Of a DNA stretch of 24,000 bases, positions 4-21,421 are shown one piece after another. Every line of letters begins with the position of its first letter. The stretch's first letter is position 1. The position numbers were made by a program, and so were the translations under genes. A model generated the notes under the pieces. It ran no database searches, was not told the DNA's origin, and saw nothing but the letters and a program-made list of their open reading frames with translations. Origin of the DNA: Thermoflavimicrobium daqui (GTDB lineage: Bacteria > Bacillota > Bacilli > Thermoactinomycetales > Thermoactinomycetaceae); NCBI RefSeq assembly GCF_003313465.1, contig NZ_KZ845663.1, positions 271,911-295,910 of the forward strand. Reading direction: 5' to 3'.

Positions 4-1470
4 TCAAGAAAAATCCCCTTGAAATGAATACGAAAGATCAATCGTGCCATCTGGATGTACTTCCACTTGATTGAGCAAAGTCTTAAATACCTGAAGTAAG
101 TCTTGCTGCTCATTTTCTAATGCGGCAAAAGCCTGCTGGATATTATGAATCCGTTTTTGAACATACTCCCTTTTATTTAATGAAACTAGCTCAACCTCGA
201 TTTGCTCCATTCTATGATCCAGCTCGTTTCTTTTTAATTCAAACTCCTGTTTGCCTATCAACTTATCTAGATAGACATCAAGCAGATCCTTCTTTTTCTC
301 TTCAAGCTGTGCTTTTTGCTTTTGCAGTTGACTCATTTTGATCCTCTTCTTTGACTCCAACTCGCTGACAAAATGAAATGAAATGGACTGACCTTTTTCT
401 TTCAATTGAGAAATGATAAAAGCACGTATATCTTCATATGTAATCGGATGATGATTGACACACCCAGCTTTGGCTGCTCTTCGATATGCCGAACATTTCA
501 AGTAATAATAGTGCTTCTTTTCGCCATTGGCTAATTTTTTACATGACTGAACAATGACCATATGACTACCACATTCACTACACTTTATAATTCCTCTTAA
601 GTCATTCCATGCAGTACTTTTGACTTTGCTTTTCTTTTCATAGTTGGCTGCTTCCCATTGCTCTCTCGAAATAATCGGCATATGATGATCTTTAAAAATT
701 AACCACTTTTCCTTTGGGTTCCGTATTTGCTTTTTCCTTCCCCCAACTTTTATCGTTGTATACTGATTGAGGATAAAGTCGCCACAATAGATGGGGTTCT
801 GGATCATTCGTTGCACCGAAGTTACTTGCCATTTGCTCTTATTTTTCGGTTTGATATTTAGTTGATTTAGTTCCAGTGTAATCCGCTTATAACCCCATCC
901 ATTTAAGTACCAGTCGAAGATTTGCCGTACTACTTTCGCTTCCTCTTGATTGATTTTCAAAAAACCCTCTTCCCGATCATACCCGTATGGAATCCGTCCG
1001 ACATGTTCTCCTCGCCGAACCTTTGCCGCTAGTGCTGCAGTAATACCTGCTGAAAGAGTCCGACTATACTGTGCGGCAAAAAGCGACCAAAGTTCAAATG
1101 CCATATCGTTTTTCCCAGCTTTATTGGAGTCATATCCCTCTTCGATTGAGATGATTCGAACATTGTGAGCGATAAACGTTTCACGAATCTCTAAGGAATC
1201 CTTTAAGTCCCGAGCTAAACGGCTAATGGACTTAAAGACAACCATATCCATTTCTTTCTTCTTCGCTTTTTCCAGCAATAACTGGATCGCTGGGCGTTCC
1301 AAAAACAAAGTCCCACTAATGCCATGATCCTTATAAATCGCGTTCTCATCCCATTCATATCCATTCCGTTCTAACCAGTTTCGACATATGTCAATCTGAT
1401 TTTCAACGGAGGATACTTGCTCATCCCGATCCGTTGACACCCGCACATACACAGCGTATTTGCTTTTCAT
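4..1470 (-). CDS. large serine recombinase (integrase/resolvase family)
   Basis: 488-aa ORF. The N-terminus YAVYVRVSTDRDEQVSSVENQ carries the catalytic-Ser motif and is followed by SISRLARD. The C-terminal half has a Cys cluster (CSECGSHM...CSAYRR...GC) and a long coiled coil, as in large serine recombinases. An AAGGTGA SD precedes the ATG. Confidence 0.9.
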   Translation of the reverse strand: MKSKYAVYVRVSTDRDEQVSSVENQIDICRNWLERNGYEWDENAIYKDHGISGTLFLERPAIQLLLEKAKKKEMDMVVFKSISRLARDLKDSLEIRETFIAHNVRIISIEEGYDSNKAGKNDMAFELWSLFAAQYSRTLSAGITAALAAKVRRGEHVGRIPYGYDREEGFLKINQEEAKVVRQIFDWYLNGWGYKRITLELNQLNIKPKNKSKWQVTSVQRMIQNPIYCGDFILNQYTTIKVGGRKKQIRNPKEKWLIFKDHHMPIISREQWEAANYEKKSKVKSTAWNDLRGIIKCSECGSHMVIVQSCKKLANGEKKHYYYLKCSAYRRAAKAGCVNHHPITYEDIRAFIISQLKEKGQSISFHFVSELESKKRIKMSQLQKQKAQLEEKKKDLLDVYLDKLIGKQEFELKRNELDHRMEQIEVELVSLNKREYVQKRIHNIQQAFAALENEQQDLLQVFKTLLNQVEVHPDGTIDLSYSFQGDFS

Positions 1471-1520
1471 GCAATCACCTTAAGTATGGATAATATACTA
1501 GATATTTCCATTATATCGGT

Positions 1521-1566
1521 AATTTGGAAAAATACAAAACCCATCTGTACTGGGAGATGGGTTTTG
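1521..1566 (-). terminator. rho-independent terminator between mini-array 1 and the recombinase gene
   Basis: A 12-bp stem (CAAAACCCATCT / AGATGGGTTTTG, 1535-1546 / 1555-1566) is followed on the minus strand by TATTTTTCC. A homologous hairpin lies at 5088-5119 in copy 2. Confidence 0.6.
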
Positions 1567-1705
1567 TAGTATGCTGTTTAGTTTATCTTGGGAAGAGTCT
1601 CTCTTTTGTAATCAAAAAGACTTAATAGGATTTTTAGACAAAGAACTAAAGAATCCATTTTGGTTTTAATACTAAGAGCTAAAAAACAGCTTTAGAGGTC
1701 AGAAA

Positions 1706-1964
1706 ATATCAATCCTCTTAATGAGGTGTTTTCTATTGTTATACCCGCTGCGACTATGACACTGGTAGCTTGGGCCCGGTTTCAATCCTCTTAATGAGGT
1801 GTTTTCTATTGTTATGTTAAATGGATACCCGCTGAACAAGTTCAAGCAAATGAAGTTTCAATCCTCTTAATGAGGTGTTTTCTATTGTTATATAAAAGCC
1901 AACCCTTGAAGGAGTTCCAGAATTAAGGTTTCAATCCTCTTAATGAGGTGTTTTCTATTGTTAT
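1706..1964 (-). CRISPR. mini-CRISPR array 1: four 37-nt repeats and three spacers, Cas6-type (type I/III-like) repeat
   Basis: Plus-strand repeats GTTTCAATCCTCTTAATGAGGTGTTTTCTATTGTTAT lie at 1779-1815, 1855-1891 and 1928-1964, with a 5'-degenerate copy at 1706-1742. Spacers are 36, 39 and 36 nt. The reverse complement ends in ATTGAAAC and contains the hairpin CCTC-ATTAA-GAGG. The degenerate repeat is distal to the conserved leader. Confidence 0.9.
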
Positions 1965-2234
1965 AGCAGATGTTTGGAAACCTTGTTACTTCTAGCTTTG
2001 TAAGCTCATTTCCGAACACCTCTCCTTTTTCGGCTTTTCAAGGTGCCTTTACATCGCTAAGAGCTGTCTGACAATTTATCTATCCCTTATGTAACAGGGA
2101 CTTTCGCATTTCCGAACACCCCTTGGGATTTTTCCGAAGCTCATGGTGTTCGCAAAGCTACTAAACCTCTAACTAAAAGATTACACTATTCCAAATTGAA
2201 TATCAAGATTAACAATGATCCAAGCTATATCCAT
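1965..2234 (-). promoter_or_regulatory. CRISPR leader, copy 1 (270 nt, homologous to 5574-5843)
   Basis: It abuts the intact terminal repeat. It aligns over its whole length and without net indels to the flank of array 2. It includes a 58-nt block (2101-2158) identical in both copies. Confidence 0.7.
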
Positions 2235-2334
2235 GGGTCATAAAACGTGAAAATACACATAACTATACTTCTTCAGAAGAAGAAAGAGTAAATTTCCAAC
2301 CAAAACAAAATGAATTTTTCGACACAACCTCTCT

Positions 2335-2529
2335 TCAGTGATGGACTTTGAGCTCTCCGAAGTCATCCTTACTTTCGTTAAGAGGTGAAAAACATCTTCT
2401 ACATTTTTCCGGTTTATTAAGTTCCCAAATGTGTAGTGTATAGCATTGTGGGCATCCATCAACACTTTTACAGAATGTTCTTTCTGCGGATCGAATGCGT
2501 TTATTCGGATCGAGATTTATTTTTATCAA
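2335..2529 (-). CDS. hypothetical small Cys-rich (Zn-ribbon-like) protein
   Basis: 64-aa ORF with a TTG start preceded by GGAAGGAAG. It contains CxxxxxCxxC...CxxC (CKSVDGCPQC...CRRC). I recognise no family for it. Confidence 0.3.
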   Translation of the reverse strand: MIKINLDPNKRIRSAERTFCKSVDGCPQCYTLHIWELNKPEKCRRCFSPLNESKDDFGELKVHH

Positions 2530-2760
2530 CGCATTTTTCTTCCTTCCTATTAGATATCATTCCTTTTAATCACTAGCTACTATCCTTAACATGATCTAAT
2601 AATCATACATTATATTCAGAATATTTTATGTGATATTTTGGTTCCCTGTATTCAATTTAACATTGGTAGGTACCACTGTCAACCCATACGCTGACGATTA
2701 ATCTAATTTATGATAATATTAAAATATCTATATTGATCATAAATCAGGGAGGCTTTTCAC

Positions 2761-3231
2761 TTGGCTAGAAAAGATTACTATCATCAAGCAAATGCCCCTC
2801 AGTCCAATTCGTTGGTTCCAGCTGCCTCGGCTGTTGTCACAAATTCTAAGGGGCAAATCCTATTACACAAACGAAGTGACAATCAGTTGTGGTCATTACC
2901 AGGTGGGACGATGGAGTTAGGAGAGACTATACAAGAAACGATTATTCGTGAGGTGAAAGAAGAGACTGGGTTTGATGTGGAAGTCCTTAAATGTATAGGG
3001 ATTTATACTGATCCCGGTCATATCATTGAGTTTTCCGATGGGGAAGTTCGGCAACAATTTTCCATCTGCTTTGCTTGCCGTATCATAGGTGGAGAACTGG
3101 CAATAAGTTCAGAGTCCATTCAAGTAAGACTTTTCTCGAAAGACGAATTAGCATCCCTTCAATTACATCCCGCCCAGCAAATCCGGCTCCAAGACTTTTT
3201 TGCCAATCAAGAAAAAGCATTTATTAGATAA
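2761..3231 (+). CDS. NUDIX hydrolase
   Basis: 156 aa. It has a canonical Nudix box, GTMELGETIQETIIREVKEETGF (GX5EX7REUXEEXGU). A GGGAGG SD lies 8 nt upstream of the TTG start. Confidence 0.85.
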   Translation: MARKDYYHQANAPQSNSLVPAASAVVTNSKGQILLHKRSDNQLWSLPGGTMELGETIQETIIREVKEETGFDVEVLKCIGIYTDPGHIIEFSDGEVRQQFSICFACRIIGGELAISSESIQVRLFSKDELASLQLHPAQQIRLQDFFANQEKAFIR

Positions 3232-3270
3232 ATGACTAATTATATTCAGCGAAAAAACGAGGTGAAGTGA

Positions 3271-4071
3271 GTGAGTAATATTTCAAAGATTGATGAGGTG
3301 GTTAAAACTATAAAAAGTCAAATCGAACAAGGGGACTATAACGCTGGACAACGCTTACCCTCTGAGCGAGAATTAGCAGAAAAACTCAAAGTCAGTCGTT
3401 CTACGATTCGTACCTCACTTCTTCGACTTCAAGCAGAAAATTTGATCGATATTGTGCCTCGTGGAGGGGTCTTTGTACGCTCGAATACTCCAATAGAAAT
3501 TTTAGGTTGTTCCAACCTTCCAACGCTTGAAGGGCTTGAACTTCAGCGGTCAGATTCTTACATGGAGATCTTACAAAGAAAAGGAAGAGAAGTTTTAGTA
3601 CGTTTTCTGGAACCATCTGTAATTATTCCGGCTAGTGTAGAAATTGCAAAGAAATTAAACATTAATCCAAATGTGGAGGTCTTTCGTAGATATCGTGTTC
3701 AGATTGTAGATCGGATTCCTTACCGGATTATGGATAGTTATTATCTTGCATCTTTGCTTAAGGAAATGCACGAACAGGATCAACAACATTTTCCCTTACT
3801 AAGATGGGATAAAAACTATGTTCCATTTTTTAAATGGCTTAGAAAAACGAAAGCGTTTTATCCTTCACGTACCAAAGAACGCTTAAAATGCCGAATGCCT
3901 ACTGCCGAAGAAGCATCTATTTTAAATATTGCCAGAAATCAGCCTGTTGTAGAAATGTATCGTTGGATCTGGGGAAGCTTTAAAGAGGAAGAAGAGGAAA
4001 TCCTTTTTGAGTATAGCCGATTTATCTGCAATGCTTCCTTATATGAATTTGAATACATATATGATATTTAA
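3271..4071 (+). CDS. GntR-family transcriptional regulator (HutC/UTRA-like C-terminal domain)
   Basis: 266 aa. The N-terminal winged HTH reads LPSERELAEKLKVSRSTIRTSLLRLQAENLI. It has a roughly 190-aa C-terminal effector domain. The start is GTG with a GAGGTGA SD. Confidence 0.8.
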   Translation: MSNISKIDEVVKTIKSQIEQGDYNAGQRLPSERELAEKLKVSRSTIRTSLLRLQAENLIDIVPRGGVFVRSNTPIEILGCSNLPTLEGLELQRSDSYMEILQRKGREVLVRFLEPSVIIPASVEIAKKLNINPNVEVFRRYRVQIVDRIPYRIMDSYYLASLLKEMHEQDQQHFPLLRWDKNYVPFFKWLRKTKAFYPSRTKERLKCRMPTAEEASILNIARNQPVVEMYRWIWGSFKEEEEEILFEYSRFICNASLYEFEYIYDI

Positions 4072-4166
4072 ACATACAGAATAGCATGTGATTATCCATA
4101 TGGTATTTTAATTTACTCCCGAGTATTTTCATAGCAAAATTTTTTTAAAGGAGTATAAGCTATACG

Positions 4167-4766
4167 ATGAATCTACTTGATAATTCACAATCCAATTCAA
4201 TTGGTTTCGAAAGAAAATGGCTTTCTCAATTCATTCCTACTGAATCCGCTCGATATCAACACATATTAGGGGTTGTTCAGTACATGGAAAACCTCCTTCC
4301 AAGGCTAAATGTCCCTTATGACTGGAAACCTCTTCTTTTACAGGCTTGTTATTTACATGATATTGGCTATTCTCCAAACTTCATCAAATACGATTTTCAT
4401 CCCCTCGATGGAGCCATTTTTGCTTCCAAAAAAGGATTCTTAAAACCAGTTGTAGCCTCCATCCTTTTTCATTCTTGTGCCTTTGAAATGGTGAAAAAAA
4501 CACGTAACGATTTGATAGAGCTATATGAAATTAACTATACTCTGTTGGATCAACTGGATCTGCTATTTATTGATCTGGTTACATTTTGTGATCTACATAC
4601 TTCTTCTACTGGTCAGCCCATCACATTCCAAGACCGAGTACAAGATGTTTTAGATCGTTATGGACCCCATCATGAAGTATCAAAACTTATGTTAGCAAAT
4701 CGTCCTTACTATGAAATGACGATTAGAAACGTGAACAGAATACTAAGTAAATCAATAGAACTCTAA
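4167..4766 (+). CDS. HD-domain phosphohydrolase-like protein
   Basis: 199 aa. H...HD...H...D pattern (QHILGV, YLHDIGY, FHPLDG, FHSCA, CDLH). An AAAGGAG SD lies upstream. Confidence 0.7.
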   Translation: MNLLDNSQSNSIGFERKWLSQFIPTESARYQHILGVVQYMENLLPRLNVPYDWKPLLLQACYLHDIGYSPNFIKYDFHPLDGAIFASKKGFLKPVVASILFHSCAFEMVKKTRNDLIELYEINYTLLDQLDLLFIDLVTFCDLHTSSTGQPITFQDRVQDVLDRYGPHHEVSKLMLANRPYYEMTIRNVNRILSKSIEL

Positions 4767-4788
4767 ACGATTCATCAGTTTGGTTTTC

Positions 4789-4842
4789 CATCAACCAGGA
4801 ACTAGCCTACTTTGCTTCTGCAATCCGGTAGTTCAGGCTTTG
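4789..4842 (-). pseudogene. 3'-end fragment of a DnaC-like gene plus its downstream flank (homologous to about 7152-7215)
   Basis: CTGCAATCCGGTAGTTCAGGCTTT matches CTGCAATCCGGTAATTCAGACTTT at the stop-proximal end of 7181..7996. ACTAGCCT and its flank are also shared. Confidence 0.6.
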
Positions 4843-5023
4843 CTGGGAGCTCCAAAAACAAAGTCCCACTAGTGTCATGATCTTTATAAATCGCATGCTC
4901 ATCCCATTTATATCCATTCCGTTCTAACCAGTTTTGACATATGACAATTTGATTTTCAACGGAGGATACTTGCTCATCCTGATCCGTTGAAACCCGTACA
5001 TACATAGCGTATTTGACTTTCAT
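4843..5023 (-). pseudogene. 5' fragment (about 60 codons) of a serine recombinase paralogous to 4..1470
   Basis: MKVKYAMYVRVSTDQDEQVSSVENQIVICQNWLERNGYKWDEHAIYKDH... aligns to the N-terminus of the intact gene. DNA homology to 1291-1470 stops abruptly near 4843. Confidence 0.85.
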
Positions 5024-5074
5024 ACAAATACCATAAATATGGATATCATTGAATTTCGTTCCATTATAGTAATT

Positions 5075-5119
5075 ATTTAAAAACAATCAAAGCCCATCTA
5101 ACCATACAGATGGGTTTTG
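5075..5119 (-). terminator. terminator hairpin, copy 2 (homolog of 1521-1566)
   Basis: Stem CAAAGCCCATCT / AGATGGGTTTTG, with a T-rich tract downstream on the minus strand. Confidence 0.5.
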
Positions 5120-5178
5120 ATTGTTTTTATTTAGTTTATCTTGGATGTGTCCACCATTACTTTAGGTAATAAAACTAG

Positions 5179-5389
5179 GTTTCAATTTCATAATAGACTC
5201 AACTCTATTTTAAGTGTAGAGCTTTCAATTCCTTGTCACAAAAGGACTTTCAAGCTCATTTACGAGCACTACAGAAAAATAAGCTTTTTTAATGTAGCTT
5301 CACAATAAAAATTATGTCACAAAGTCTATTTAGATCAGATATATCAGCGAGTACGAGCAAGACGGAAAGATAGCAATAGGCGCTACAAT
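5179..5389 (-). repeat. decayed repeat and leader remnant
   Basis: A degenerate repeat-like GTTTCAATTTCATAATAG...CTATT lies at 5179-5215. CTTTCAAGCTCATTTACGAGCAC resembles the leader motif CTTTGTAAGCTCATTTCCGAACAC. Confidence 0.35.
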
Positions 5390-5573
5390 GTTTCAATTCT
5401 CTTGATGAGGTGTTTTTTATTGTTATTGTTTTAAAGGAAGTTGATGCAGAGCAAGTAGCAAAGTTTCAATCCTCTTAATGAGGTGTTTTTTATTGTTATT
5501 AATTATTAGTCCTGCGTTTTGTACTTGTAGATTTTCGTTTCAATCCTCTTAATGAGGTGTTTTTTATTGTTAT
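5390..5573 (-). CRISPR. mini-CRISPR array 2: three 37-nt repeats and two spacers
   Basis: Repeats lie at 5390-5426 (variant AATTCTCTTGATGAGG), 5463-5499 and 5537-5573. The consensus differs from array 1 at one position (T instead of C at nt 28). Spacers are 36 and 37 nt. Confidence 0.9.
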
Positions 5574-5843
5574 AGCGGATGTCTGGAAACCTTGTTATGT
5601 CTAGCTTTGTAAGCTCATTTCCGATCACCTCGCCATTTTTGGCTGTTTCATGCAAATTTTAGCTAATAAGAGCTGTCTGATAATTTATCTATCCTTTACA
5701 TATCAAGGGCTTTCGCATTTCCGAACACCCCTTGGGATTTTTCCGAAGCTCATGGTGTTCGCAAAGCAACGAAACCTCTTACTAAGAGATTACATTATTC
5801 TTAATTGAATATCAAGTCGAGCAGTGATTTAAGCTATATCCAT
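5574..5843 (-). promoter_or_regulatory. CRISPR leader, copy 2 (270 nt)
   Basis: Homologous to 1965-2234. The block at 5710-5767 is identical to 2101-2158. Confidence 0.7.
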
Positions 5844-6258
5844 AAAGCCAATCCACCCGGCAATTCTCAGTAAATCGGTTTTATGAATAACTCGATATCA
5901 TACTAACAAACCATTTTTTATCTAAGTCTATAGTGAATTCTTGATGATCTTGCCATTGATCCATAGCCAATCCTCCTCTAAGGCTATGTTTTTACCGAAT
6001 TGGGTGTATTATAACATCTATTCGAAACTCTCACATTTCTGGATAGCGTTCTTGAATTCCAGCGGTTATACTTTTATTAACCCGTTCTTTCGTGGGTTTA
6101 ATCTTATATCTTGTTAAGGAGATTTAACAATGAACAAAGAGCTTTACAGGTATTGCGGGCTGAAAGCCCACGGTTTCAATCGTAGGATGAAAGACTGCGT
6201 TGCTCGGTAATCCCTTTTTGGGATTGCTTAGAGCAACAATTTTCTGTATAATCGAATA

Positions 6259-6540
6259 CATGAGCGGTGCTCATCCTACTTATAGTAGGTTTTGTTCCTA
6301 TGTACGTCATGGTATGGGGTTCTAGTGGCGAACAAGTCTCTCCCACTAGGGAAAATCATGAGAGTGAGTGAAAAGGAACTAGAACGCTGGTAATAGGCGT
6401 TCCGCCTATGTGGGTACATTTCTAACTGCATGGGACGGGGTGATGACACACCCCTGAACTTGGGAGTTGTTCAAAACGGAAACGGACTGCGAACGCTAAC
6501 TATCCAAGAATCCCATCGGCTTCAGCCGTGGGAGTGTCAA
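6259..6540 (+). ncRNA. candidate structured RNA or long 5' leader of unknown class
   Basis: A possible promoter is TTGCTT (6224-6229), 17 nt, TATAAT (6247-6252) with TG just upstream. A chain of perfect short helices follows: 6261-6273, 6275-6289, 6322-6349, 6393-6409, 6437-6454 and 6511-6531. Long-range pairs are also possible (GTTCTAG 6319-6325 / CTAGAAC 6379-6385; CTTGG 6458-6462 / CCAAG 6504-6508). GC content is higher than in the flanks. Confidence 0.3.
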
Positions 6541-7071
6541 TTTCAATATCAGTGGAGATATAAAAAAGAGGATTTAAAATTTTGCCCGCGTTGCGGACAT
6601 CGTTTTTCCCTAGAAGACTTGCATATTCCCAATCAACCTCAACTCCTTTGTCATCATTGTCAATTTGTCTTCTACTTAGATCCAAAACTGGCAGTAGTGG
6701 CAGTGGTTCTAAATAAAGAAAAAAACAAAGTATTACTTCTGCAAAGAAACGAAGAACCTGGGAAAGGCTTATGGGCACTTCCAGGAGGATATGTTGAACG
6801 TGGACATGATCTTTTTGAAACCATACAAAATGAAGTAAAAGAAGAAACAGGTCTTTCTATAGAAGTTTATAAAATTATTAATACATTCTCTTATCCTAAG
6901 GATGGGCTTATCCAATTGACCTACGAAGCGATTGCTGATCATGAAGAGGTTATCGTTAACATTGAAAGCAAAAAAGGTTATTTTTTCTATTTTGATGAAA
7001 TTCCTTGGAGTCAGCTTGCATTTCCCTCAACGGAAAAGCTATTACGTTTGTATACAGATAAAAATAGGTAG
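6430..7071 (+). CDS. Zn-ribbon NUDIX hydrolase (NudC-like architecture); start codon uncertain
   Basis: The Zn ribbon CPRCGHRF...CHHCQF is followed by a Nudix fold with the box GYVERGHDLFETIQNEVKEETGL. The only in-frame starts upstream of the Zn ribbon are ATG 6430 and TTG 6460. Neither has a convincing SD. Confidence 0.7.
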   Translation: MGRGDDTPLNLGVVQNGNGLRTLTIQESHRLQPWECQFQYQWRYKKEDLKFCPRCGHRFSLEDLHIPNQPQLLCHHCQFVFYLDPKLAVVAVVLNKEKNKVLLLQRNEEPGKGLWALPGGYVERGHDLFETIQNEVKEETGLSIEVYKIINTFSYPKDGLIQLTYEAIADHEEVIVNIESKKGYFFYFDEIPWSQLAFPSTEKLLRLYTDKNR

Positions 7072-7180: not shown

Positions 7181-7996
7181 TTATAACTTCCCTGCAATCC
7201 GGTAATTCAGACTTTTATCACCTTTTAGAATCACTGTAAAGTCTTTACACATCTCATAAATCCGCGATCCGATCGCTTCATCAATGGTACATAGTTGATC
7301 AATATCTTTTTCGGATGAGACCATGATCGGAAGATGATTTAAATAGCGGTAATTAATCATGTCAAATAGCTGTTCAAGTTGGAAATCGGTTACTGTTTTT
7401 CGCCCTTTAAATAGATCATCGATAAATAAAACCTCAACTTGCTTTAACTGCTGCACTTTATCACTGATTACCTCAAAGTTACTTTTTAGATCATTCATGC
7501 CTTCTATCCAAGGAAAGTAGAGAACCCCAACACCTTGGCTTAATAGACTATTAGCCACTGCAATCAGAAGATGCGTTTTTCCACTACCCGACTTCCCTAG
7601 TAAAGCAATGCTATTATTCCTCCCTGATCGTAGTCGTGAGAAATATTCCAGATAAGCTTTGGCACATGCGAACGCATTTTTTACGGGTTGGGGTCTGCCA
7701 TCAAGGATGAACGACTCAAATGATAGTCTACGAAATTCATTAGTGATCCGACTGTATTTAAATAGCCTCTCCACTCTCCTTTGCACATGACACTCGCACC
7801 AACACCAAACTTCATAGCCATTTTTATCTCGTGCAATATATCCTTCTTGATCTTGGCATTTAGTGCATTGATAAATGGGCTGGCTTTTCCTCAAGCCATT
7901 TGGGCATGTTGAGCCATCCGACTTTGCCGCCTGTAATGCTTTCATTCGCTGGATTCTCTCGCTGATTTGATCCATAACGCTGATTGTTTTTTGCAT
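7181..7996 (-). CDS. DnaC/IstB-like AAA+ helicase-loader protein with an N-terminal Cys-rich region
   Basis: Walker A GKSGSGKTHLL and Walker B LFIDDL. Cys-rich segment CTKCQDQ...CWCECH. I prefer the MQKTISV start at 7996, which has an AAGGAGAG SD, over the track start at 8155. Confidence 0.8.
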   Translation of the reverse strand: MQKTISVMDQISERIQRMKALQAAKSDGSTCPNGLRKSQPIYQCTKCQDQEGYIARDKNGYEVWCWCECHVQRRVERLFKYSRITNEFRRLSFESFILDGRPQPVKNAFACAKAYLEYFSRLRSGRNNSIALLGKSGSGKTHLLIAVANSLLSQGVGVLYFPWIEGMNDLKSNFEVISDKVQQLKQVEVLFIDDLFKGRKTVTDFQLEQLFDMINYRYLNHLPIMVSSEKDIDQLCTIDEAIGSRIYEMCKDFTVILKGDKSLNYRIAGKL

Positions 7997-8849
7997 GATG
8001 CTGATCTCTCCTTTTTTCTTCATTGATCCAATTCCAGAGAATCGTTGCACAGTAATTAAACGAATGAACACCATCAACCCCTTTGATTTCAAAGGCATGA
8101 TCCACCGCTTTTTTGATCCGATCCAATGGTACTTGCTTAGTAACCAATTCATCAATCGCTTGGTAGTCTTTTGCAGACAGCGGAGCTTTTCGCTGTTTTT
8201 TCTTCAAGTAATAGCGTTCTATTTGCTGGGCTTGTCTATCTTCTTTTGATGGCTCACTTTGTGAAAGATCACTCCATCTATCATCATCATTATTATTATT
8301 TTCTTTATTATTTTCTTTAGGAGGCTTAAATCCATTGGTACTATTGGGATCATCGCTTGTATCGGTTACCAAAATAGTAACTGAGGTGTTACTGTTTTGG
8401 TAACTTTCATACACTAAAGAGTTACCATTTTGGTAACTAGCGTTACTTTTTTGGGAATCGAAATCTCCTTCTGATGTTACGGTTTTAGTAACTGGTCCAG
8501 AGGGCAAATTTCTTTTCAACAACTCCATATACTTCTGTTTACTAAAACGTTTTACTAAGCTAACACGCCACTGGTCATAATTTTTGTTGATCTGGATCTG
8601 TTCACCATCGATCAGCAATACTTTTACCTCTGATAGATAATCTAACTCTTTTTTTATATGCGTCCTTAAAACGCCAACCAGCTCAAAATCGGAGGGACGT
8701 AGCAAAGCGACCTTCTTGCCACATCCATAGCTCATTCGGATGACGAGATCCAATATGTTTCGTTGCCGCTTTGAAAAGTCTGTCTGCATTATGGCTTCAT
8801 AAAGTTCATTATTTAACTTGGTGTAGTGATCCGGCTGTGGATTTGCCAT
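7860..8849 (-). CDS. phage replication initiator (RepO N-terminal / DnaD-like C-terminal)
   Basis: 329 aa. The N-terminus (FSKRQRNILDLVIRMSYGCGKK) resembles phage replication protein O. A low-complexity linker follows. The C-terminus (HSFNYCATILWNWINEEK) resembles a DnaD-type domain. The 3' end overlaps the next gene by 137 nt. Confidence 0.65.
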   Translation of the reverse strand: MANPQPDHYTKLNNELYEAIMQTDFSKRQRNILDLVIRMSYGCGKKVALLRPSDFELVGVLRTHIKKELDYLSEVKVLLIDGEQIQINKNYDQWRVSLVKRFSKQKYMELLKRNLPSGPVTKTVTSEGDFDSQKSNASYQNGNSLVYESYQNSNTSVTILVTDTSDDPNSTNGFKPPKENNKENNNNDDDRWSDLSQSEPSKEDRQAQQIERYYLKKKQRKAPLSAKDYQAIDELVTKQVPLDRIKKAVDHAFEIKGVDGVHSFNYCATILWNWINEEKRRDQHHAKNNQRYGSNQRENPANESITGGKVGWLNMPKWLEEKPAHLSMH

Positions 8850-8879
8850 TGCAATCTTCCCCCTTATAATCTAAGTGAT

Positions 8880-9083
8880 CTATTCAATTTCTTCTGGATG
8901 AAATAGGTTAAATTCTCTTAATACCGACTTCTCTATCTGATTCCGTTGAATATGTACAAAGCCACATCCACATTGATAGCAGGTCATTGATCGATGTCTC
9001 TTAAAGTCTTTCCTCCTCGGATTTACTGACCAACCACAATGACAGCAATATTTTGGTGGATTGATATTAAAGTAAACTCCCAT
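8880..9083 (-). CDS. hypothetical small Zn-ribbon protein
   Basis: 67 aa with CCHCG...CYQCGC. A strong SD (AGAGGAGGA) lies upstream of the ATG. Confidence 0.5.
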   Translation of the reverse strand: MGVYFNINPPKYCCHCGWSVNPRRKDFKRHRSMTCYQCGCGFVHIQRNQIEKSVLREFNLFHPEEIE

Positions 9084-9285
9084 CTTTCATCCTCCTCTAA
9101 CTAGAAGCAGGGAATGGTGGGTTCCCTGCTTGTCCAATATACTTCCTAACCTTATCAACCTTCACCCTTAGCAATTGCCACAGCGTGACTAGACCCTGCT
9201 CTACCTAATCTAGATACATTTTTTGTATAAAATGAACGGGTTTCGCTTTGCTTTTTACTAAATGTTTGGTAGAATAACTTTACTG

Positions 9286-9447
9286 TTAAGCTTTTTTAGA
9301 GCTCGCTTCTTTCGCCAGAGAAGCGAGCTTTTGATTTAGAAGTTGGGCATAGGCTTTTAAAGTCAAATGTCCAGCAAGCTTTCCATCAACATATATCCAA
9401 ACTTTTGGCACTCTTTTCTCTATAAAGCCGTAGATCCGAATGCGCAA
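9286..9447 (-). CDS. hypothetical 53-aa protein (internal TTG start of the 9286..9573 ORF)
   Basis: A near-perfect SD, AAAGGAGGTGA, lies 5-6 nt upstream of TTG 9447. No recognisable family. Confidence 0.35.
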   Translation of the reverse strand: MRIRIYGFIEKRVPKVWIYVDGKLAGHLTLKAYAQLLNQKLASLAKEASSKKA

Positions 9448-9986
9448 CGCTATCACCTCCTTTTGAAGATGAAAACAATTCCTTTTGCAGACTACTACCA
9501 GATTGAAAAAAAGGAGAAAACGCTTCATAAAATGCCTGTTCAATCGGTTTATCTCCAAAAGTTTCTTTCCCAAGCTTTGGCTTCACTCTTTTATTTAGCC
9601 GACGTCCTTTTTTCATAATATTTCCCCTGCCTTTTCATAGGTCTTACAAATAAATCTATGCAATATGGACAGGTGTACGAGCCTTCTAAATTACTTTAAA
9701 GATATGGACACTTTATCAACTCATATCTGACCTATTAAGGCTGTTAATAAAGAAGAGAGCCATTTTTGACTGAATCGACCTCTTGATGTGTTACTCAAAG
9801 GAATAAAGCTAATCTCCTTCTCGTTTTAATATTTGACTATCTATTACAAATGTTATGAATATATTTCGAGCTACTTTCTTTCTCTTAGCAATTTTTCGAT
9901 CGTATTTTACAAAACGATCCTCTCGGTTTTTTAATTTCGCAATAACTGGAACAACTTAGTTTACCTCCACAAACTCATTATAAATC

Positions 9987-10076
9987 TATAGGTTAATTTA
10001 AGTCAATTATAAATTTACCCATTGGTTAATTTATCGTGAATTAATCTTACTCATCTTGTGTTATCATTAACCTATA
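9987..10076. promoter_or_regulatory. operator-like repeats in the divergent intergenic region
   Basis: TATAGGTTAAT (9987-9997) and its exact reverse complement ATTAACCTATA (10066-10076). A third site, GGTTAATTTA, occurs at 10024-10033 and also at 9991-10000. Confidence 0.35.
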
Positions 10077-10097
10077 AGTAACTAAGGGTGATTTTTT

Positions 10098-10406
10098 ATG
10101 ATTCACATTGGATCTCGTATAAAAGAGTTGAGAATACAGCGAAATATTAGTGCCAAAGAGTTAGCTTTAGCTCTAGATGTATCTCAATCTTTTATTTCAG
10201 CTATAGAAAATGGGAATAAAAAATGTTCGTTGGAAAACATCGATAAAATTTGCTCTGTATTAGGCATTACTCTTTCAGACTTCTTTGCTACTAACGACAA
10301 TCAACTTCCACCTGATCTCATACAACTCATGGAAGCTCTTAAAAAGTTACCATCTGAAGAGCGTCGTGCTCTTAACCATTACCTGCAAACTCGATTGAAA
10401 GGATGA
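10098..10406 (+). CDS. XRE-family HTH transcriptional regulator
   Basis: 102 aa. HTH_3 pattern (IKELRIQRNISAKELALALDVSQSFISAIENGNK). Confidence 0.85.
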   Translation: MIHIGSRIKELRIQRNISAKELALALDVSQSFISAIENGNKKCSLENIDKICSVLGITLSDFFATNDNQLPPDLIQLMEALKKLPSEERRALNHYLQTRLKG

Positions 10407-10831
10407 TTCACATGAGTGATCAATTGCTTGAACAAATTCTGAGTGAACTAAAATCACTAAATCAACGTGTGACCAACATTGAAACGAACATGGCCACGAA
10501 ACAAGAACTTGAATCTATAGACCAGCGTATGTCTAACTTTGAAACAAACACGAAACAAGAACTTGAATCCTTAAATCAACGTATGACACACTTTGAAGCA
10601 AACACGAAACAAGAGCTTGAATCCTTAAATCAGCATGTAAGCCATTTAGTTCCCACGACAGAACGCATCGAAAAGAAACAAGCAACCATCCTCGAACAAG
10701 TTGTACAAAATTCAGAAAGGATTTCGGTTATTACGGAAAGTCAGCAGCGTCAAGAAGAATCTCTTAAAACTCTCGCTTTGCGCTCTATCGAACAAGAAAC
10801 AGAGTTGAGAAAGATAAAGCGTGTCAAGTAA
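10403..10831 (+). CDS. coiled-coil protein with tandem 18-aa repeats, function unknown
   Basis: 142 aa. Its start overlaps the upstream stop (ATGA). It carries three tandem units of the type QRMxxFExNTKQELESLN. Confidence 0.6.
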   Translation: MIHMSDQLLEQILSELKSLNQRVTNIETNMATKQELESIDQRMSNFETNTKQELESLNQRMTHFEANTKQELESLNQHVSHLVPTTERIEKKQATILEQVVQNSERISVITESQQRQEESLKTLALRSIEQETELRKIKRVK

Positions 10832-10990
10832 TCGCACCTAGCTGGTGCTTTTTTATGCCTATTCTATTCCGAATTTCCGCACTCTATTAAGTACAGCATG
10901 TTGCATAATTCGAGCCAAAAATCTAGATCATTTCTAGAATGCGAATCGCTTTTGTGTAAGATCGAAAACGATGAGCGGCTAAAGAGGTTA

Positions 10991-11007
10991 TGCAACGTTA
11001 TGTTGCA
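10991..11007. promoter_or_regulatory. palindromic operator candidate TGCAAC-N5-GTTGCA
   Basis: A perfect 6-bp inverted repeat. Further half-sites are GTTGCA at 10900-10905 and TGCAAC at 11055-11060, all upstream of the HTH gene at 11128. Confidence 0.35.
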
Positions 11008-11071
11008 ATTTTACGCATATATTATTGTAACATTTCGTTTCTGTCAATATTTTTTGCAACTTTTCGTTTCC

Positions 11072-11100
11072 TTGAACTAGAAACACTAAGTTTCTATAAT
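11072..11100 (+). promoter_or_regulatory. sigma-A-type promoter for the 11128 HTH gene
   Basis: TTGAAC (11072-11077), a 17-nt spacer, then TATAAT (11095-11100). It lies 28 nt upstream of the ATG, and a GGGAG SD follows. Confidence 0.6.
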
Positions 11101-11127
11101 TAATTTAAGACCTTAGGGAGATAAAAA

Positions 11128-11538
11128 ATGTTTAAAGAACGGTTAATTAAATTAAGGAAAGAAAATAAACTAAGTCAATACGAGCTTGCTAATAAACTTG
11201 GCTTTACAAGAGGACAGATTTCAAATTATGAGTTAGGCTCAAGAGAGCCTGACCTTAAAACACTTCATAAAATAGCTGACTTCTTCCAAGTTACTCTAGA
11301 CTATTTAACCGGTCGAGTAGATAACCTTACAAGCGCAGAAACCGATCTCCGAAAAGCAATAAATGAGGTATCAGGTCTAAGCAACCAAAATAATCGAAAT
11401 CTCGCTATGGAAGAGATCATAGAAGTACTTAAAGTAAAAGAGCTTACCTTAAATGGCAAGCCCATACCCGAAGACAAGAAAGTGCTTATTATAGCCCAAC
11501 TAGAAGCTACATTAGATGTTTTAAGAAAACAGGAATAG
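11128..11538 (+). CDS. XRE-family HTH regulator with a C-terminal extension
   Basis: 136 aa. HTH_3 pattern (LRKENKLSQYELANKLGFTRGQISNYELGSREP). Confidence 0.85.
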   Translation: MFKERLIKLRKENKLSQYELANKLGFTRGQISNYELGSREPDLKTLHKIADFFQVTLDYLTGRVDNLTSAETDLRKAINEVSGLSNQNNRNLAMEEIIEVLKVKELTLNGKPIPEDKKVLIIAQLEATLDVLRKQE

Positions 11539-11576
11539 AAGTGATACATTAATAATAAGATACAACTGTTTGTGAT

Positions 11577-12139
11577 GCTATAGTTCCCTAATGAAGTTCG
11601 ATATGATATGATTTTAGGGTCAAATGGATTGTCAAATATTTTGCTATAGTTCCCTAACGAAGTTCGATATGATATGATCGATGCGCCCGAAACTTACGAC
11701 TTTAACACGCTATAGTTCCCTAACGAAGTTCGATATGATATGATGTATTTTTAGCAAATGATTTAGGTAATCCGCTATAGTTCCCTAACGAAGTTCGATA
11801 TGATATGATAACAAAAAAAACAAACCCTCACAGTCTGAAGCTATAGTTCCCTAACGAAGTTCGATATGATATGATACTTTCCATCAGAAGCATATCGCAT
11901 TCTAGGCTATAGTTCCCTAACGAAGTTCGATATGATATGATTTCAAGATTTAACTATTCGCCTCTCTAATCGCTATAGTTCCCTAACGAAGTTCGATATG
12001 ATATGATGATTTGTTCTATTACCAGAACGAACTGGAGGCTATAGTTCCCTAACGAAGTTCGATATGATATGATTGTAAAAAATTTATGTGTTTTAGGTGG
12101 TAAGCTATAGTTCCCTAACGAAGTTCGATATGATATGAT
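11577..12139 (+). CRISPR. type II-C CRISPR array A: nine 36-nt repeats and eight spacers; crRNA sense inferred to be the plus strand
   Basis: Repeat GCTATAGTTCCCTAACGAAGTTCGATATGATATGAT starts at 11577, 11643, 11709, 11774, 11840, 11906, 11972, 12038 and 12104. Spacers are 29-30 nt. The first, cas-distal repeat is a variant (C16T). The sense call comes from complementarity to the predicted tracrRNA. Confidence 0.95.
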
Positions 12140-12148
12140 ACCTTTTCG

Positions 12149-17062: not shown

Positions 17063-17361
17063 ATCATATGATATCGTATTTCATTAGGGAACTATAGCTC
17101 TTGGAGATGCAGTTCCAACTGGAGATTTATCATATGATATCGTATTTCATTAGGGAACTATAGCCTCTATCAGGAGACAGTTGCCACGCTGTCCATCATA
17201 TGATATCGTATTTCATTAGGGAACTATAGCAACATACCGCTGCTATGGAATGCTCAAGAGATCATATGATATCGTATTTCATTAGGGAACTATAGCGGAG
17301 CTAATGTTAAACCCGTACTTAGCGGATCATATGATATCGTATTTCATTAAGAAACTTTGAT
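17063..17361 (-). CRISPR. type II-C CRISPR array B: five repeats and four spacers, inverted relative to array A, with a variant repeat
   Basis: The plus-strand repeat ATCATATGATATCGTATTTCATTAGGGAACTATAGC starts at 17063, 17129, 17195 and 17261, with a degenerate copy at 17326. Spacers are 29-30 nt. Its reverse complement differs from the array A repeat at 4 of 36 positions (16, 20, 22, 29). Confidence 0.93.
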
Positions 17362-19153: not shown

Positions 19154-19177
19154 CTTTATCGCCTCCCTGTATTTATT

Positions 19178-20591: not shown

Positions 20592-20631
20592 TATTACCCC
20601 CCCTAATTTCTTAGAACTCTTACCTATGAAA

Positions 20632-20670
20632 TATAACAGAAGGGGTTTTAGGCATACCCCTTCTGTTATA
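20632..20670 (-). terminator. strong hairpin separating the R-M genes from the CBASS operon
   Basis: A perfect 15-bp stem, TATAACAGAAGGGGT / ACCCCTTCTGTTATA, with a 9-nt loop. The T-tract is only short (TTT) on the minus strand. Confidence 0.5.
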
Positions 20671-20697
20671 GGTATGTAAATATATAAATACACAAAA

Positions 20698-21411: not shown

Positions 21412-21421
21412 AATGTCTCCT

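What the first reader, a model, noticed from the sequence alone, without database searches (positions are those of the whole stretch)
1471..5843. Two diverged copies of a leader / mini-CRISPR / terminator / serine-recombinase module, with Cas6-type repeats and no cognate cas genes in view
**What the sequence shows**
- Both copies have the same order on the minus strand: a 270-nt leader, a short array (4 and 3 repeats), a terminator hairpin, then a large serine recombinase gene. Copy 1 of the gene is intact and copy 2 is truncated.
- The 37-nt repeat read on the minus strand ends in ATTGAAAC and carries a CCTC/GAGG hairpin. This is the classic signature of Cas6-processed type I-B/III repeats.
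- Spacers are 36-39 nt, also typical of those types.
- The degenerate repeat lies at the leader-distal end in both arrays.
- The only cas genes in the window are type II-C, with unrelated repeats.

**Interpretation**
- The copies differ by roughly 10-15% by eye yet keep the array-recombinase linkage, so the module appears to be inherited as a unit of a mobile-element family.
- One possibility is that these are element-borne orphan arrays that borrow a host type I/III effector for competition between mobile elements.
- Another is a functional coupling between array and recombinase, such as integration next to or into arrays. I am not aware that this has been described for large serine recombinases.
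Basis: partly seen in the sequence, partly recalled or inferred. Interest (0 to 1): 0.75.

Follow-up and report, generated by a model that had tools for sequence, protein, structure and literature searches.

The report
Type I-D CRISPR arrays beside phage integrase
Two short but genuine type I-D CRISPR arrays sit next to a phage-type integrase gene inside decayed prophage DNA of Thermoflavimicrobium daqui; they most likely depend on the cell's type I-D Cas proteins encoded elsewhere, and nothing links the arrays to the integrase beyond being neighbours.

Summary
There are seven 37-nt repeats (4 + 3), spacers of 36-39 nt, two ~275-nt leaders that are 88-91% identical, a terminator hairpin, one intact large serine recombinase gene of 488 aa, and a 61-codon stump of a second copy.

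The repeats are type I-D, not I-B/III. Repeat and leader are homologous to arrays that directly follow complete I-D operons in Marininema halotolerans and in a metagenome contig. The source organism, Thermoflavimicrobium daqui, has a type I-D Csc2 protein that appears to lie on another contig, so the arrays are remote rather than orphan.

The recombinase is a phage-type integrase with a promoter-like site of its own behind the terminator. Its 60-71% homologues, in 16 loci covering 8 contexts, never have an array beside them, so a functional array-recombinase module is not supported.

Comparison with related phages suggests this integrase is the last gene of its element. Copy 2 lies downstream of a phage early-gene module, and an unrelated phage-like contig carries a type I-D leader-array. 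The arrays are therefore most likely prophage cargo, served in trans. Host arrays that mobile elements landed beside remain a serious rival.

No spacer target was found. This is a new member of a known kind, of modest interest.

The parts
4..1470 (-). Large serine recombinase, 488 aa, complete (copy 1)
   Evidence: It has Resolvase, Recombinase and Zn_ribbon_recom domains. It matches PHROG phrog_95 'integrase' at E 8e-121. It is 100% identical to a Thermoflavimicrobium daqui protein.
1289..1588 (-). Homology block B, copy 1: CCAAGATAAACTAAA, hairpin, promoter-like site, ribosome-binding site and first 61 codons of the recombinase
   Evidence: It is 81% identical to 4842-5141 (family D2). Homology stops sharply at about 1589/5142.
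1533..1568 (-). Intrinsic terminator-like hairpin between array 1 and the recombinase
   Evidence: The stem has 14 pairs, the loop 8 nt, and a TTTTTCC tail follows.
1510..1537 (-). Promoter-like site for the recombinase (TTGTAT, 16 nt, TATAAT)
   Evidence: Read directly from the sequence. The scan did not list it because its -35 hexamer matches only 3 of 6. The equivalent site of copy 2, TTGATT-16-TATAAT at 5090-5063, was reported by the scan.
1590..1705 (-). Trailer of array 1, not homologous to the trailer of copy 2
   Evidence: Its local alignment score against the copy-2 gap is no better than shuffled sequence.
1706..1964 (-). Type I-D CRISPR array 1: 4 repeats, 3 spacers, degenerate repeat at the distal end
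1965..2240 (-). Leader 1. Its core of about 215 nt is homologous to type I-D leaders of four other lineages. The motif GAGGTGTTCGGAAATG lies at 2007-2022, and a near-copy of it (GGGGTGTTCGGAAATG) at 2107-2122.
   Evidence: Alignments A2, A4 and A6.
4841..5023 (-). Stump of a second recombinase gene: 61 homologous codons, then unrelated sequence and a stop
   Evidence: About 90% nucleotide identity to copy 1, with 10 non-synonymous and 6 synonymous codon differences. A Resolvase N-terminal hit was found.
5080..5127 (.). Hairpin of copy 2 (20-bp stem), with a promoter-like site at 5063-5090(-)
5179..5350 (-). Decayed third unit: the proximal ~135 nt of a leader plus one decayed repeat (about 5179-5214)
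   Evidence: A colinear local alignment to leader 1 plus repeat scores 51, against a shuffle maximum of 41, and ends exactly on ATTGAAAC.
5390..5573 (-). Type I-D CRISPR array 2: 3 repeats, 2 spacers. Its repeats carry A where those of array 1 carry G at repeat position 10 (T versus C on the plus strand).
5574..5850 (-). Leader 2
   Evidence: 88-91% identical to leader 1. It aligns to type I-D leaders.
7181..11538 (.). Remnant of a temperate-phage early region upstream of copy 2. It comprises a DnaC-like loader 7181-8155(-), a RepO/DnaD-like protein 7860-8849(-), a small Cro-position ORF 9386-9616(-), and helix-turn-helix repressor-like genes at 10098-10406(+) and 11128-11538(+).
   Evidence: Pfam and PHROG hits. 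The 11128 regulator has homologues in phage contigs L004, L022 and L035, and the small ORF has one in L004.

Best explanation
**What it is.** These are two paralogous type I-D CRISPR leader-array units, plus a decayed third. They lie in the integrase-proximal accessory region of degenerate temperate-phage-like elements, inside a defence and mobile-element island of Thermoflavimicrobium daqui.

**How it most likely works (all inferred).**
- Each array is transcribed from its own leader.
- A Cas6 enzyme cuts at the base of the CCUC/GAGG hairpin, giving crRNAs with an 8-nt AUUGAAAC 5' handle.
- The crRNAs are loaded into the type I-D effector (Cas10d/Csc2/Csc1) that the genome encodes, apparently on another contig.
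- The complete ~215-nt leaders would let the type I-D Cas1-Cas2 complex add spacers in trans.

**The recombinase.** It is an ordinary phage-type integrase. It is the terminal gene of the element and a separate transcription unit, behind a terminator and with a promoter-like site of its own. It sits next to the arrays only because both occupy the end of the element.

**The two copies.** They reflect one ancestral juxtaposition that was later duplicated, either as tandem related elements or as a segmental duplication. They do not reflect a functional array-recombinase module.
For: **Type I-D identity (shown)**
- Arrays with closely related 37-nt repeats and homologous leaders directly follow complete type I-D operons. 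One is in Marininema halotolerans (cas10d-csc2-csc1-cas3-cas4-cas1-cas2-cas6). The other is metagenome contig L029.
- The Csc2 protein of L029 is, jointly with P0154, the closest relative of the T. daqui Csc2, at 69% identity.
- Kroppenstedtia sanguinis arrays of the same family lie next to cas6 and a type I-D-like cas1.
- Long leaders of 202-220 bp with conserved motifs are a described type I-D trait (PMC6607411).

**Effector in trans**
- NCBI names a type I-D Cas7/Csc2 in T. daqui, recorded with a longest contig of 544,945 bp. The figure for the recombinase is 730,946 bp.
- No type I-D cas remnant is in the window.

**Past activity (inferred)**
- The two arrays share no spacer.
- Each array is homogeneous for its own repeat variant.

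**Separate transcription units**
- Terminator-like hairpins and promoter-like sites lie between array and recombinase.

**No conserved linkage**
- Sixteen loci with recombinase homologues contain neither the repeat nor the leader motif.
- Homology to those loci starts at the recombinase start codon.

**Arrays lie inside a mobile element (inferred by analogy)**
- In L005 the 60% homologue follows holin, endolysin, accessory genes and a hairpin with a T-run, and ORFs with no phage-family match follow it.
- In L004 the 64% homologue is followed by ImmA/ImmR-like genes and early genes, as expected for the circular form.
- In five other contexts, genes with ordinary cellular annotations follow the homologue.
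- In the window, copy 2 is preceded, in the matching orientation, by repressor-like genes, a divergent small ORF, RepO and DnaC. The 11128 regulator and the small ORF have homologues in L004.
- Independently, the 39.8-kb phage-like contig L035 carries a type I-D leader and an 11-repeat array about 45 nt downstream of its early operon. That contig also encodes AAA_24, DnaB, a sigma-like protein, a repressor-like regulator, a large serine recombinase, an amidase (endolysin-type domain) and a siphovirus Gp37-like protein.
Against: - None of the five spacers matches phages, plasmids, viral contigs, the window or any fetched locus. The expected target, competing elements, is therefore not shown.
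- The two viral contigs that carry this recombinase family (L004, L005) have no arrays in the fetched parts. Two repeat-pattern scans of all viral contigs returned neither of them.
- In the sister species T. dichotomicum, mini-arrays with the same leader lie among ordinary genes with no phage genes called beside them. The host-array reading is therefore natural for this genus.
- No homologue of the K. sanguinis-type Cas6 turned up for T. daqui, so the processing enzyme is unverified.
- The inside-the-element geometry rests on analogy with homologues that are only 60-64% identical.
- The DNA to the left of position 1 and the rest of the genome could not be retrieved.
- The trailer between array and block B is not homologous between the copies. 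A simple one-piece duplication does not predict this.
Confidence: 0.55

Rival explanations
1. The arrays are host chromosomal satellite arrays. Scattered type I-D leader-array units would be a feature of the genus. Integrase-bearing elements landed beside them, or a segment spanning array plus element end was duplicated. Under this reading the adjacency is accidental and the arrays were never mobile.
For: - T. dichotomicum has 2-repeat mini-arrays with the same leader, spaced 1-3 kb apart among ordinary genes.
- K. sanguinis has at least 15 leader-array units in the chromosome near cas genes.
- The homology of block B ends sharply about 120 nt upstream of the recombinase start codon, as an element end would.
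- The trailers are not homologous.
- The genes between the copies (NUDIX, GntR, HD) are not phage-specific.
- No viral contig carries the T. daqui repeat.
Against: - In the integrated prophage L005 and in the genomic contexts of the homologues, the element interior lies upstream of the recombinase, which is where the arrays are.
- Copy 2 is colinear with a phage early module in the expected orientation.
- Two independent chance adjacencies are unlikely, so a duplication is needed in any case.
Confidence: 0.3
2. There is a mechanistic coupling. Either the serine recombinase uses a site in the array trailer as its attachment site, so that related elements repeatedly integrate just downstream of type I-D arrays, or the array transcript controls the recombinase.
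For: - Both arrays have the same element end 35-116 nt beyond their last (decayed) repeat.
- The homology boundary at CCAAGATAAACTAAA is sharp.
- Mobile elements that target CRISPR arrays are known: Tn7-like transposons (PMC11837452).
- The repressor-side end of the prophage remnant also lies 38 nt from the last repeat of the type II-C array.
Against: - The host-side flanks next to block B are not detectably similar between the copies.
- Homologues at 60-71% identity sit in 8 unrelated contexts without arrays.
- By analogy with L004 and L005, the attachment site lies downstream of the recombinase, not upstream.
- A strong terminator-like hairpin and a separate promoter-like site argue against read-through control.
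Confidence: 0.07
3. The arrays are inert relics. They are leftovers of decayed elements or of a dispersed type I-D locus, and are no longer transcribed, processed or extended. This is compatible with either origin.
For: - The arrays are very short, with 2-3 spacers.
- A third unit is already decayed.
- Surrounding genes are truncated and no late or lysis genes lie between the phage early module and the stump.
- No clearly conserved sigma-70 promoter was found in the leaders.
- No Cas6 of the expected family was found for T. daqui.
Against: - Five of the seven repeats match the consensus of their own array exactly; the other two are the distal, degenerate repeats, with 2 mismatches each.
- Both leaders keep the motif blocks shared with other type I-D leaders.
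- The arrays carry different spacers and array-specific repeat variants, which implies acquisition after the copies diverged.
- The genome has a type I-D Csc2.
Confidence: 0.2

Closest known systems
Type I-D CRISPR arrays with long conserved leaders (Synechocystis-type; PMC6607411, PMC10212523)
   Same: - The repeats are 37 nt, with a 3' hairpin and an 8-nt ...TGAAAC handle.
- The leader is about 215 nt, with conserved motif blocks at both its distal and proximal ends.
- In relatives the same repeat and leader family directly follows cas10d-csc2-csc1-cas3-cas4-cas1-cas2.
   Different: - In this window the arrays are away from the cas operon, apparently on a different contig.
- They are very short.
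- They are present as several leader-array units.
- They are embedded in phage-like DNA.
Prophage-borne CRISPR arrays that rely on the host system (Clostridium difficile prophages, type I-B; PMC4173771)
   Same: - Arrays with host-type repeats lie inside temperate-phage DNA.
- There are no cas genes on the element, so a host class 1 system would be used in trans.
   Different: - The subtype is I-D and the family is Thermoactinomycetaceae.
- That the arrays lie inside the element is inferred, not shown.
- No spacer target was found, whereas the C. difficile arrays target other phages.
- The phages here are degenerate.
Virus-borne mini-CRISPR arrays in interviral conflict (PMC6858448; review PMC11656645)
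   Same: - The arrays are short, with 1-3 spacers.
- The element carrying them has no cas genes.
- The proposed use is the host's CRISPR machinery turned against competitors.
   Different: - Those mini-arrays mostly target related viruses, which is not shown here.
- These units keep a full-length leader that should be competent for spacer acquisition.
CRISPR-Cas carried on elements moved by large serine recombinases (type III-A on SCCmec with Ccr recombinases; PMC10434264)
   Same: CRISPR components and a large serine recombinase lie on one integrative element.
   Different: - SCCmec carries the whole cas operon.
- Here only arrays are present, and the recombinase is a phage-integrase type (phrog_95).
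Mobile elements that insert into or next to CRISPR arrays (Tn7-like transposons targeting CRISPR repeats, PMC11837452)
   Same: A mobile-element end lies immediately beside arrays, twice for the type I-D arrays and once for the type II-C array.
   Different: - No evidence of targeting was found: the flanks are not conserved.
- Homologues of the recombinase sit in array-free sites.
- The recombinase is of a different class.

Membership tests
Type I-D CRISPR array | Repeat of about 37 nt with a 3'-proximal hairpin followed by an 8-nt handle ending GAAAC | tested here: met
   Seven copies are present. The stem CCUC/GAGG and the handle AUUGAAAC were confirmed.
Type I-D CRISPR array | The same repeat family is found directly beside type I-D cas operons | tested here: met
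   Shown in M. halotolerans (L018), in metagenome contig L029, and in K. sanguinis next to cas6 and a type I-D-like cas1.
Type I-D CRISPR array | Long leader (about 200-220 bp) with conserved motifs, homologous to leaders of operon-linked type I-D arrays | tested here: met
   Alignments A2, A4 and A6. The published leader length and motifs are in PMC6607411.
Type I-D CRISPR array | Cognate cas genes (effector, cas6, cas1-cas2) present in the same genome | tested here: inconclusive
   A T. daqui type I-D Csc2 exists, by NCBI name. No Cas6 of the K. sanguinis type was found for T. daqui. The operon DNA was not retrievable.
Type I-D CRISPR array | Transcription and Cas6 processing into crRNAs | not testable with these tools
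   This needs small-RNA sequencing.
Orphan CRISPR array (no cognate system in the genome) | Absence of a matching cas system anywhere in the genome | tested here: not met
   A type I-D Csc2 is annotated in T. daqui. The arrays are remote, not orphan.
Virus- or prophage-borne CRISPR array | The array lies within the boundaries of a mobile element | tested here: inconclusive
   The geometry by analogy with L004 and L005, and the phage early module upstream, favour a position inside the element. The attachment sites and the left flank were not seen.
Virus- or prophage-borne CRISPR array | Spacers target related or competing mobile elements | tested here: not met
   No match was found in phages, plasmids, viral contigs, the window or the fetched loci. 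The databases hold few phages of this bacterial family, so this negative is weak.
Virus- or prophage-borne CRISPR array | Precedent for the same array family on a phage genome | tested here: met
   The phage-like contig L035 carries a type I-D leader and an 11-repeat array after its early operon. Whether the contig is a complete circular phage was not verified.
Large serine recombinase (phage integrase type) | Resolvase catalytic domain, recombinase domain and zinc ribbon, with the N-terminal catalytic serine motif | tested here: met
   Pfam hits. phrog_95 integrase at E 8e-121. The VRVSTD motif is visible in the translation.
Large serine recombinase (phage integrase type) | Defined attP/attB or attL/attR sites | not testable with these tools
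   The flank beyond position 1 is unavailable, and no empty site was available for comparison.
   None of 16 loci in 8 contexts has repeats or the leader motif. None of the arrays of this family fetched from other genomes has a serine recombinase directly beside it. In L035 the recombinase lies about 9 kb from the array.
   Terminator-like hairpins and separate promoter-like sites lie between array and gene. These are predictions only.

The most novel reading that the evidence does not exclude
A lineage of temperate phages or integrative elements with serine integrases in Thermoactinomycetaceae is tied to CRISPR arrays. Either it integrates specifically at the trailer end of arrays, as seen twice beside type I-D arrays and once beside the type II-C array in this window. 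Or it carries acquisition-competent type I-D leader-array units in its integrase-proximal slot. In the second case the element, rather than the host, would own an updatable immune memory that runs on host Cas proteins.
Probability: 0.1. Interest if true: 0.65.

Novelty: new member of a known kind. Interest (0 to 1): 0.3.

Why it matters
If the arrays are indeed prophage cargo, this would extend element-borne CRISPR arrays that exploit host Cas proteins to type I-D and to thermophilic Bacillales. It would also show such arrays keeping a full leader, so that the host's acquisition machinery could update the element's own memory. If they are host arrays, the locus is simply an example of how mobile-element traffic fragments and duplicates CRISPR loci inside a defence island. 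In both cases the result corrects the subtype and removes the suggestion of a new recombinase-CRISPR mechanism.

Tried and rejected
**Searches that led nowhere**
- Retrieving the T. daqui DNA around the window or around its type I-D operon. Only short JGI contigs without DNA were on record, or nothing at all.
- Two scans of metagenome contigs for the repeat found nothing.
- The one genome-collection scan found the repeat family only in K. sanguinis. The source genome did not appear.
- Spacer searches against phages, plasmids, viral contigs, the window and all fetched loci gave only chance-level hits. The 98 spacers taken from related arrays also gave none.
- Rfam found nothing at the gathering threshold in the window. 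In 1400-6700 it found only chance-level hits on the hairpin. There are no tRNA genes.

**Ideas tested and dropped**
- *A larger duplication unit that includes the NUDIX genes.* The two NUDIX proteins are only 35% identical, and the regions upstream of the leaders do not align.
- *Synteny of cargo between the window and the loci of recombinase homologues.* None was found.
- *6430-6540 as the C-terminal remnant of a DNA methyltransferase.* This was a resemblance recalled from memory, and Pfam gives no support.
- *The recombinase stump as the integrase of the 7181-11538 remnant in an L022-type layout, with the integrase next to the repressor.* It does not fit that layout, but it does fit the L004/L005-type layout.
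- *Selection on the stump.* Ten non-synonymous against six synonymous codon differences is too few to decide.
- *Covariation analysis of the leader inverted repeat.* Not attempted, because the paired columns hardly vary.

Full report

Yes. The 37-nt repeat ATAACAATAGAAAACACCTCATTAAGAGGATTGAAAC (minus strand) occurs seven times with at most 3 mismatches, against none in 100 shuffles.
- Array 1 has four repeats (1706-1964). Array 2 has three (5390-5573).
- Spacers are 36, 39 and 36 nt, and 37 and 36 nt.
- The most degenerate repeat is at the leader-distal end of each array.
- The repeat RNA folds into a 4-bp CCUC/GAGG stem with a 5-nt loop, followed by the 8 nt AUUGAAAC.

The flanking features are also as described.
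- The leaders (1965-2240 and 5574-5850) are 88-91% identical.
- A 14-bp hairpin with a T-tail lies at 1533-1568(-). A 20-bp hairpin lies at 5080-5127.
- The recombinase at 4-1470(-) is a complete 488-aa protein with Resolvase, Recombinase and Zn_ribbon_recom domains.
- The second copy keeps only 61 homologous codons (5023-4841), after which the sequence is unrelated.
- The only cas genes in the window are type II-C cas9, cas1 and cas2, with a different 36-nt repeat. tblastn with type I-D proteins finds no remnant in the window.

Three refinements are needed.
- The 'module' consists of two separate homology blocks. Block A is leader plus array. Block B is 1289-1588 versus 4842-5141, 81% identical. 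It holds CCAAGATAAACTAAA, the hairpin, a promoter-like site and the first 61 codons.
- Between the blocks lies DNA that is not homologous between the copies, 116 nt in copy 1 and 247 nt in copy 2.
- The gap of copy 2 contains a third, decayed unit at 5179-5350. It comprises the proximal ~135 nt of a leader and one decayed repeat. It aligns colinearly with leader 1 plus repeat, scoring 51 against a shuffle maximum of 41, and ends on ATTGAAAC.

**2. Source organism**

The recombinase is 100% identical to a Thermoflavimicrobium daqui protein. This species belongs to the Thermoactinomycetaceae. Its DNA could not be retrieved beyond the window.

**3. What kind of CRISPR?**

The arrays are type I-D.
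- A genome-collection scan with the repeat core hit only Kroppenstedtia sanguinis. There, dozens of repeats of the form GTAACAATGCAAAACACCTCAATAAGAGGATTGAAAC lie beside cas6 and a cas1 that scores best with the type I-D model.
- The DNA upstream of each K. sanguinis sub-array aligns with both window leaders over about 210 nt.
- In Marininema halotolerans, the homologue of that Cas6 is the last gene of cas10d-csc2-csc1-cas3-cas4-cas1-cas2-cas6. After one helicase gene comes a homologous leader and a 20-repeat array of the same family.
- In metagenome contig L029, a full type I-D operon ends in cas2. It is followed directly by a homologous leader and the repeat CTAACAATAGATAAACACCTCTTTTGAGGATTGAAAC. 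This repeat shares the TAACAATAGA start that is specific to the window repeat.
- The Csc2 protein of L029 is, jointly with P0154, the closest relative (69%) of the T. daqui Csc2.
- Leaders of 202-220 bp with conserved motifs that promote spacer acquisition are a published trait of type I-D (PMC6607411).

**4. Are the arrays orphan?**

They are not orphan at genome level.
- NCBI annotates a type I-D Cas7/Csc2 in T. daqui. Its cluster record gives a longest contig of 544,945 bp, against 730,946 bp for the recombinase. The effector therefore appears to lie elsewhere in the genome.
- A Cas6 of the K. sanguinis type was not found for T. daqui, although it was found for the sister species T. dichotomicum. 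The processing enzyme remains unverified.
- The two arrays share no spacer, and each is homogeneous for its own single-base repeat variant. I take this as a sign that spacers were added after the copies diverged. This is an inference.

**5. The recombinase and the alleged module**

The recombinase matches PHROG phrog_95, annotated as integrase, at E 8e-121. I examined its homologues at 60-71% identity in 16 loci, which represent 8 distinct contexts.
- The contexts are two viral contigs, an element with FtsK-like and relaxase-like genes, Thermoactinomyces vulgaris, Polycladomyces, M. halotolerans, Risungbinella and a Logan contig.
- None contains the repeat or the leader motif within 6-8 kb.
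- Nucleotide homology to the window starts at the start codon.
- None of the arrays of this family fetched from other genomes has a serine recombinase directly beside it. In the phage-like contig L035 the recombinase lies about 9 kb from the array.

Within the window, the hairpin and a promoter-like site separate array and gene. The site is TTGATT-16-TATAAT in copy 2. In copy 1 it is TTGTAT-16-TATAAT, read directly from the sequence.

A functional array-recombinase module is not supported.

**6. Are the arrays on a mobile element?**

This is the main open point. The evidence leans towards yes.
- In L005, the 60% homologue follows holin, endolysin, a few accessory genes and a hairpin with a T-run. 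After it come ORFs with no phage-family match.
- In L004, the 64% homologue is followed by convergent ImmA-like and repressor-like genes and then by divergent early genes. That is the order expected in the circular form if the attachment site lies just downstream of the recombinase.
- In five genomic contexts, genes with ordinary cellular annotations follow the recombinase directly.
- By this geometry the recombinase is the last gene of the integrated element, and whatever lies upstream of it is inside the element.

The window fits this layout when read on the minus strand.
- The order is: repressor-like genes (11128-11538 and 10098-10406), a divergent small ORF (9616-9386), RepO/DnaD-like, DnaC-like, then leader 2, array 2 and the recombinase stump.
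- The 11128 regulator is 45% identical to its L004 counterpart. The small ORF has homologues in L004.
- This is the layout of an L004-type prophage that has lost its late genes, with the arrays in the accessory slot next to the integrase.

Independent support comes from a viral-contig scan, which found one true array of this family.
- It lies on a 39.8-kb phage-like contig (L033-L035).
- A type I-D leader begins about 45 nt after a sigma-like gene that ends the early operon (AAA_24, DnaB-like helicase). An 11-repeat array follows.
- The same contig encodes a repressor-like regulator, a distantly related large serine recombinase, a ParM-like protein, an amidase with an endolysin-type domain and a siphovirus Gp37-like protein.
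- I could not check whether this contig is a complete circular genome.

Several observations point the other way.
- T. dichotomicum has mini-arrays with the same leader among ordinary genes.
- L004 and L005 carry no arrays in the fetched parts.
- No spacer target was found.
- The geometry is an analogy with homologues that are only 60-64% identical.

**7. Why two copies?**

Leader identity (88-91%), coding identity in the 61 codons (about 90%) and identity of block B as a whole (81%) are of the same order. This fits one ancestral juxtaposition that was later duplicated, or two related elements in tandem. The trailers would then have been reshaped by array turnover, as the decayed unit in copy 2 shows. 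The count of 10 non-synonymous against 6 synonymous codon differences is too small to say whether the stump diverged as a gene or as a pseudogene. The upstream flanks and the two NUDIX genes are not part of the duplication.

**8. Most likely mechanism**

All of the following steps are inferred.
1. Each unit is transcribed from its leader.
2. Cas6 cuts at the hairpin base, leaving the AUUGAAAC handle.
3. The crRNAs load into the type I-D effector encoded elsewhere in the genome.
4. The intact leaders allow spacer acquisition by the type I-D Cas1-Cas2 complex in trans.

The integrase acts only on its own attachment sites. Confidence figures:
- The arrays being type I-D: about 0.9.
- The full best explanation, including the mobile-element location: 0.55.
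- Rival, host arrays with accidental adjacency: 0.3.
- Rival, mechanistic coupling: 0.07.
- Inert relics, which is compatible with either origin: 0.2.

**9. Comparison with known systems and verdict**

The closest known cases are:
- type I-D arrays and leaders (PMC6607411);
- prophage-borne arrays in Clostridium difficile (PMC4173771);
- viral mini-arrays (PMC6858448, PMC11656645);
- CRISPR on SCCmec, which is moved by serine recombinases (PMC10434264);
- transposons that target CRISPR repeats (PMC11837452).

Nothing here falls outside these categories. This is a new member of a known kind, of modest interest (0.3).

Noticed in passing
window 11539-11612: The repressor-side end of the prophage remnant (stop codon of the 11128-11538 gene) lies only 38 nt from the terminal, slightly degenerate repeat of the type II-C array. 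A phage-like element thus abuts the trailer end of a second, unrelated CRISPR array.
   Followed up: partly
window 17063-17230: A second short array (about 2.5 units, period 66) of type II-C-like repeats lies upstream of cas9. It is in inverted orientation relative to the main array at 11577-12140. It may include the tracrRNA anti-repeat.
   Followed up: no
window 18197-23773: The rest of the window is a defence island. It holds a CBASS-like pair (SMODS cyclase 19554-20693, patatin 18197-19153), a YgjP-like metallopeptidase (20698-21411) and a type I restriction R subunit (21422-23773).
   Followed up: partly
L001-L003 (Kroppenstedtia sanguinis, contig positions 160-192 kb): At least 15 leader-array units lie in series, each with its own ~210-nt leader and its own repeat variant. 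The leader-array unit, not just the repeat, seems to multiply in this type I-D lineage.
   Followed up: partly
L016 12759-13062, 15754-16056, 17251-17354 (T. dichotomicum): A solitary cas6 lies next to two 2-repeat mini-arrays with leaders and a leader remnant, scattered among ordinary genes. No T. dichotomicum Csc2 appeared among the 120 listed hits of the search. This looks like a decayed type I-D locus.
   Followed up: partly
window 2007-2022 and 2107-2122; L029 about 11895-11910 and 11992-12007: The leader holds two copies of a 14-nt motif exactly 100 nt apart (GGTGTTCGGAAATG). In L029 both copies are changed in a similar way (GGTTGGCGGAAACG and GGATGGCGGAAAGG). This suggests two binding sites for one co-evolving factor.
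   Followed up: no
L006 4576-4791, L008 5100-5300, L009 5672-5863, L019 7812-7964; window 9386-9616(-): A conserved small ORF of 50-72 aa (LGKETFGxK...AFxEAFxPYF) sits directly upstream of the recombinase homologues in four contexts. In the window and in L004 it occupies the Cro position of the phage early region instead. It has no Pfam match and no confident PHROG match.
   Followed up: partly
L021 1094-9461 (Risungbinella massiliensis): A 65% homologue of the recombinase lies directly downstream of a three-gene pPIWI-RE defence system. In T. vulgaris a type I restriction R subunit lies about 6 kb upstream. The slot upstream of this integrase family seems to collect defence cargo.
   Followed up: partly
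L005 7433-7559: An exact 64-bp tandem duplication spans the 3' end of the recombinase homologue, at the place where the attachment site is expected.
   Followed up: no
L008, L009-L014: In several genomes the recombinase plus the small ORF form an isolated two-gene unit between genes with ordinary cellular annotations. No other element genes are called beside them.
   Followed up: no
window 2335-2529(-) and 5850-6560: A 64-aa ORF with two CxxC pairs lies just upstream of leader 1 and has no family match. The ~700 nt upstream of leader 2 are largely non-coding, with no convincing Rfam or Pfam hit. The ORF 6430-7071 probably starts later than annotated, near 6560.
   Followed up: partly
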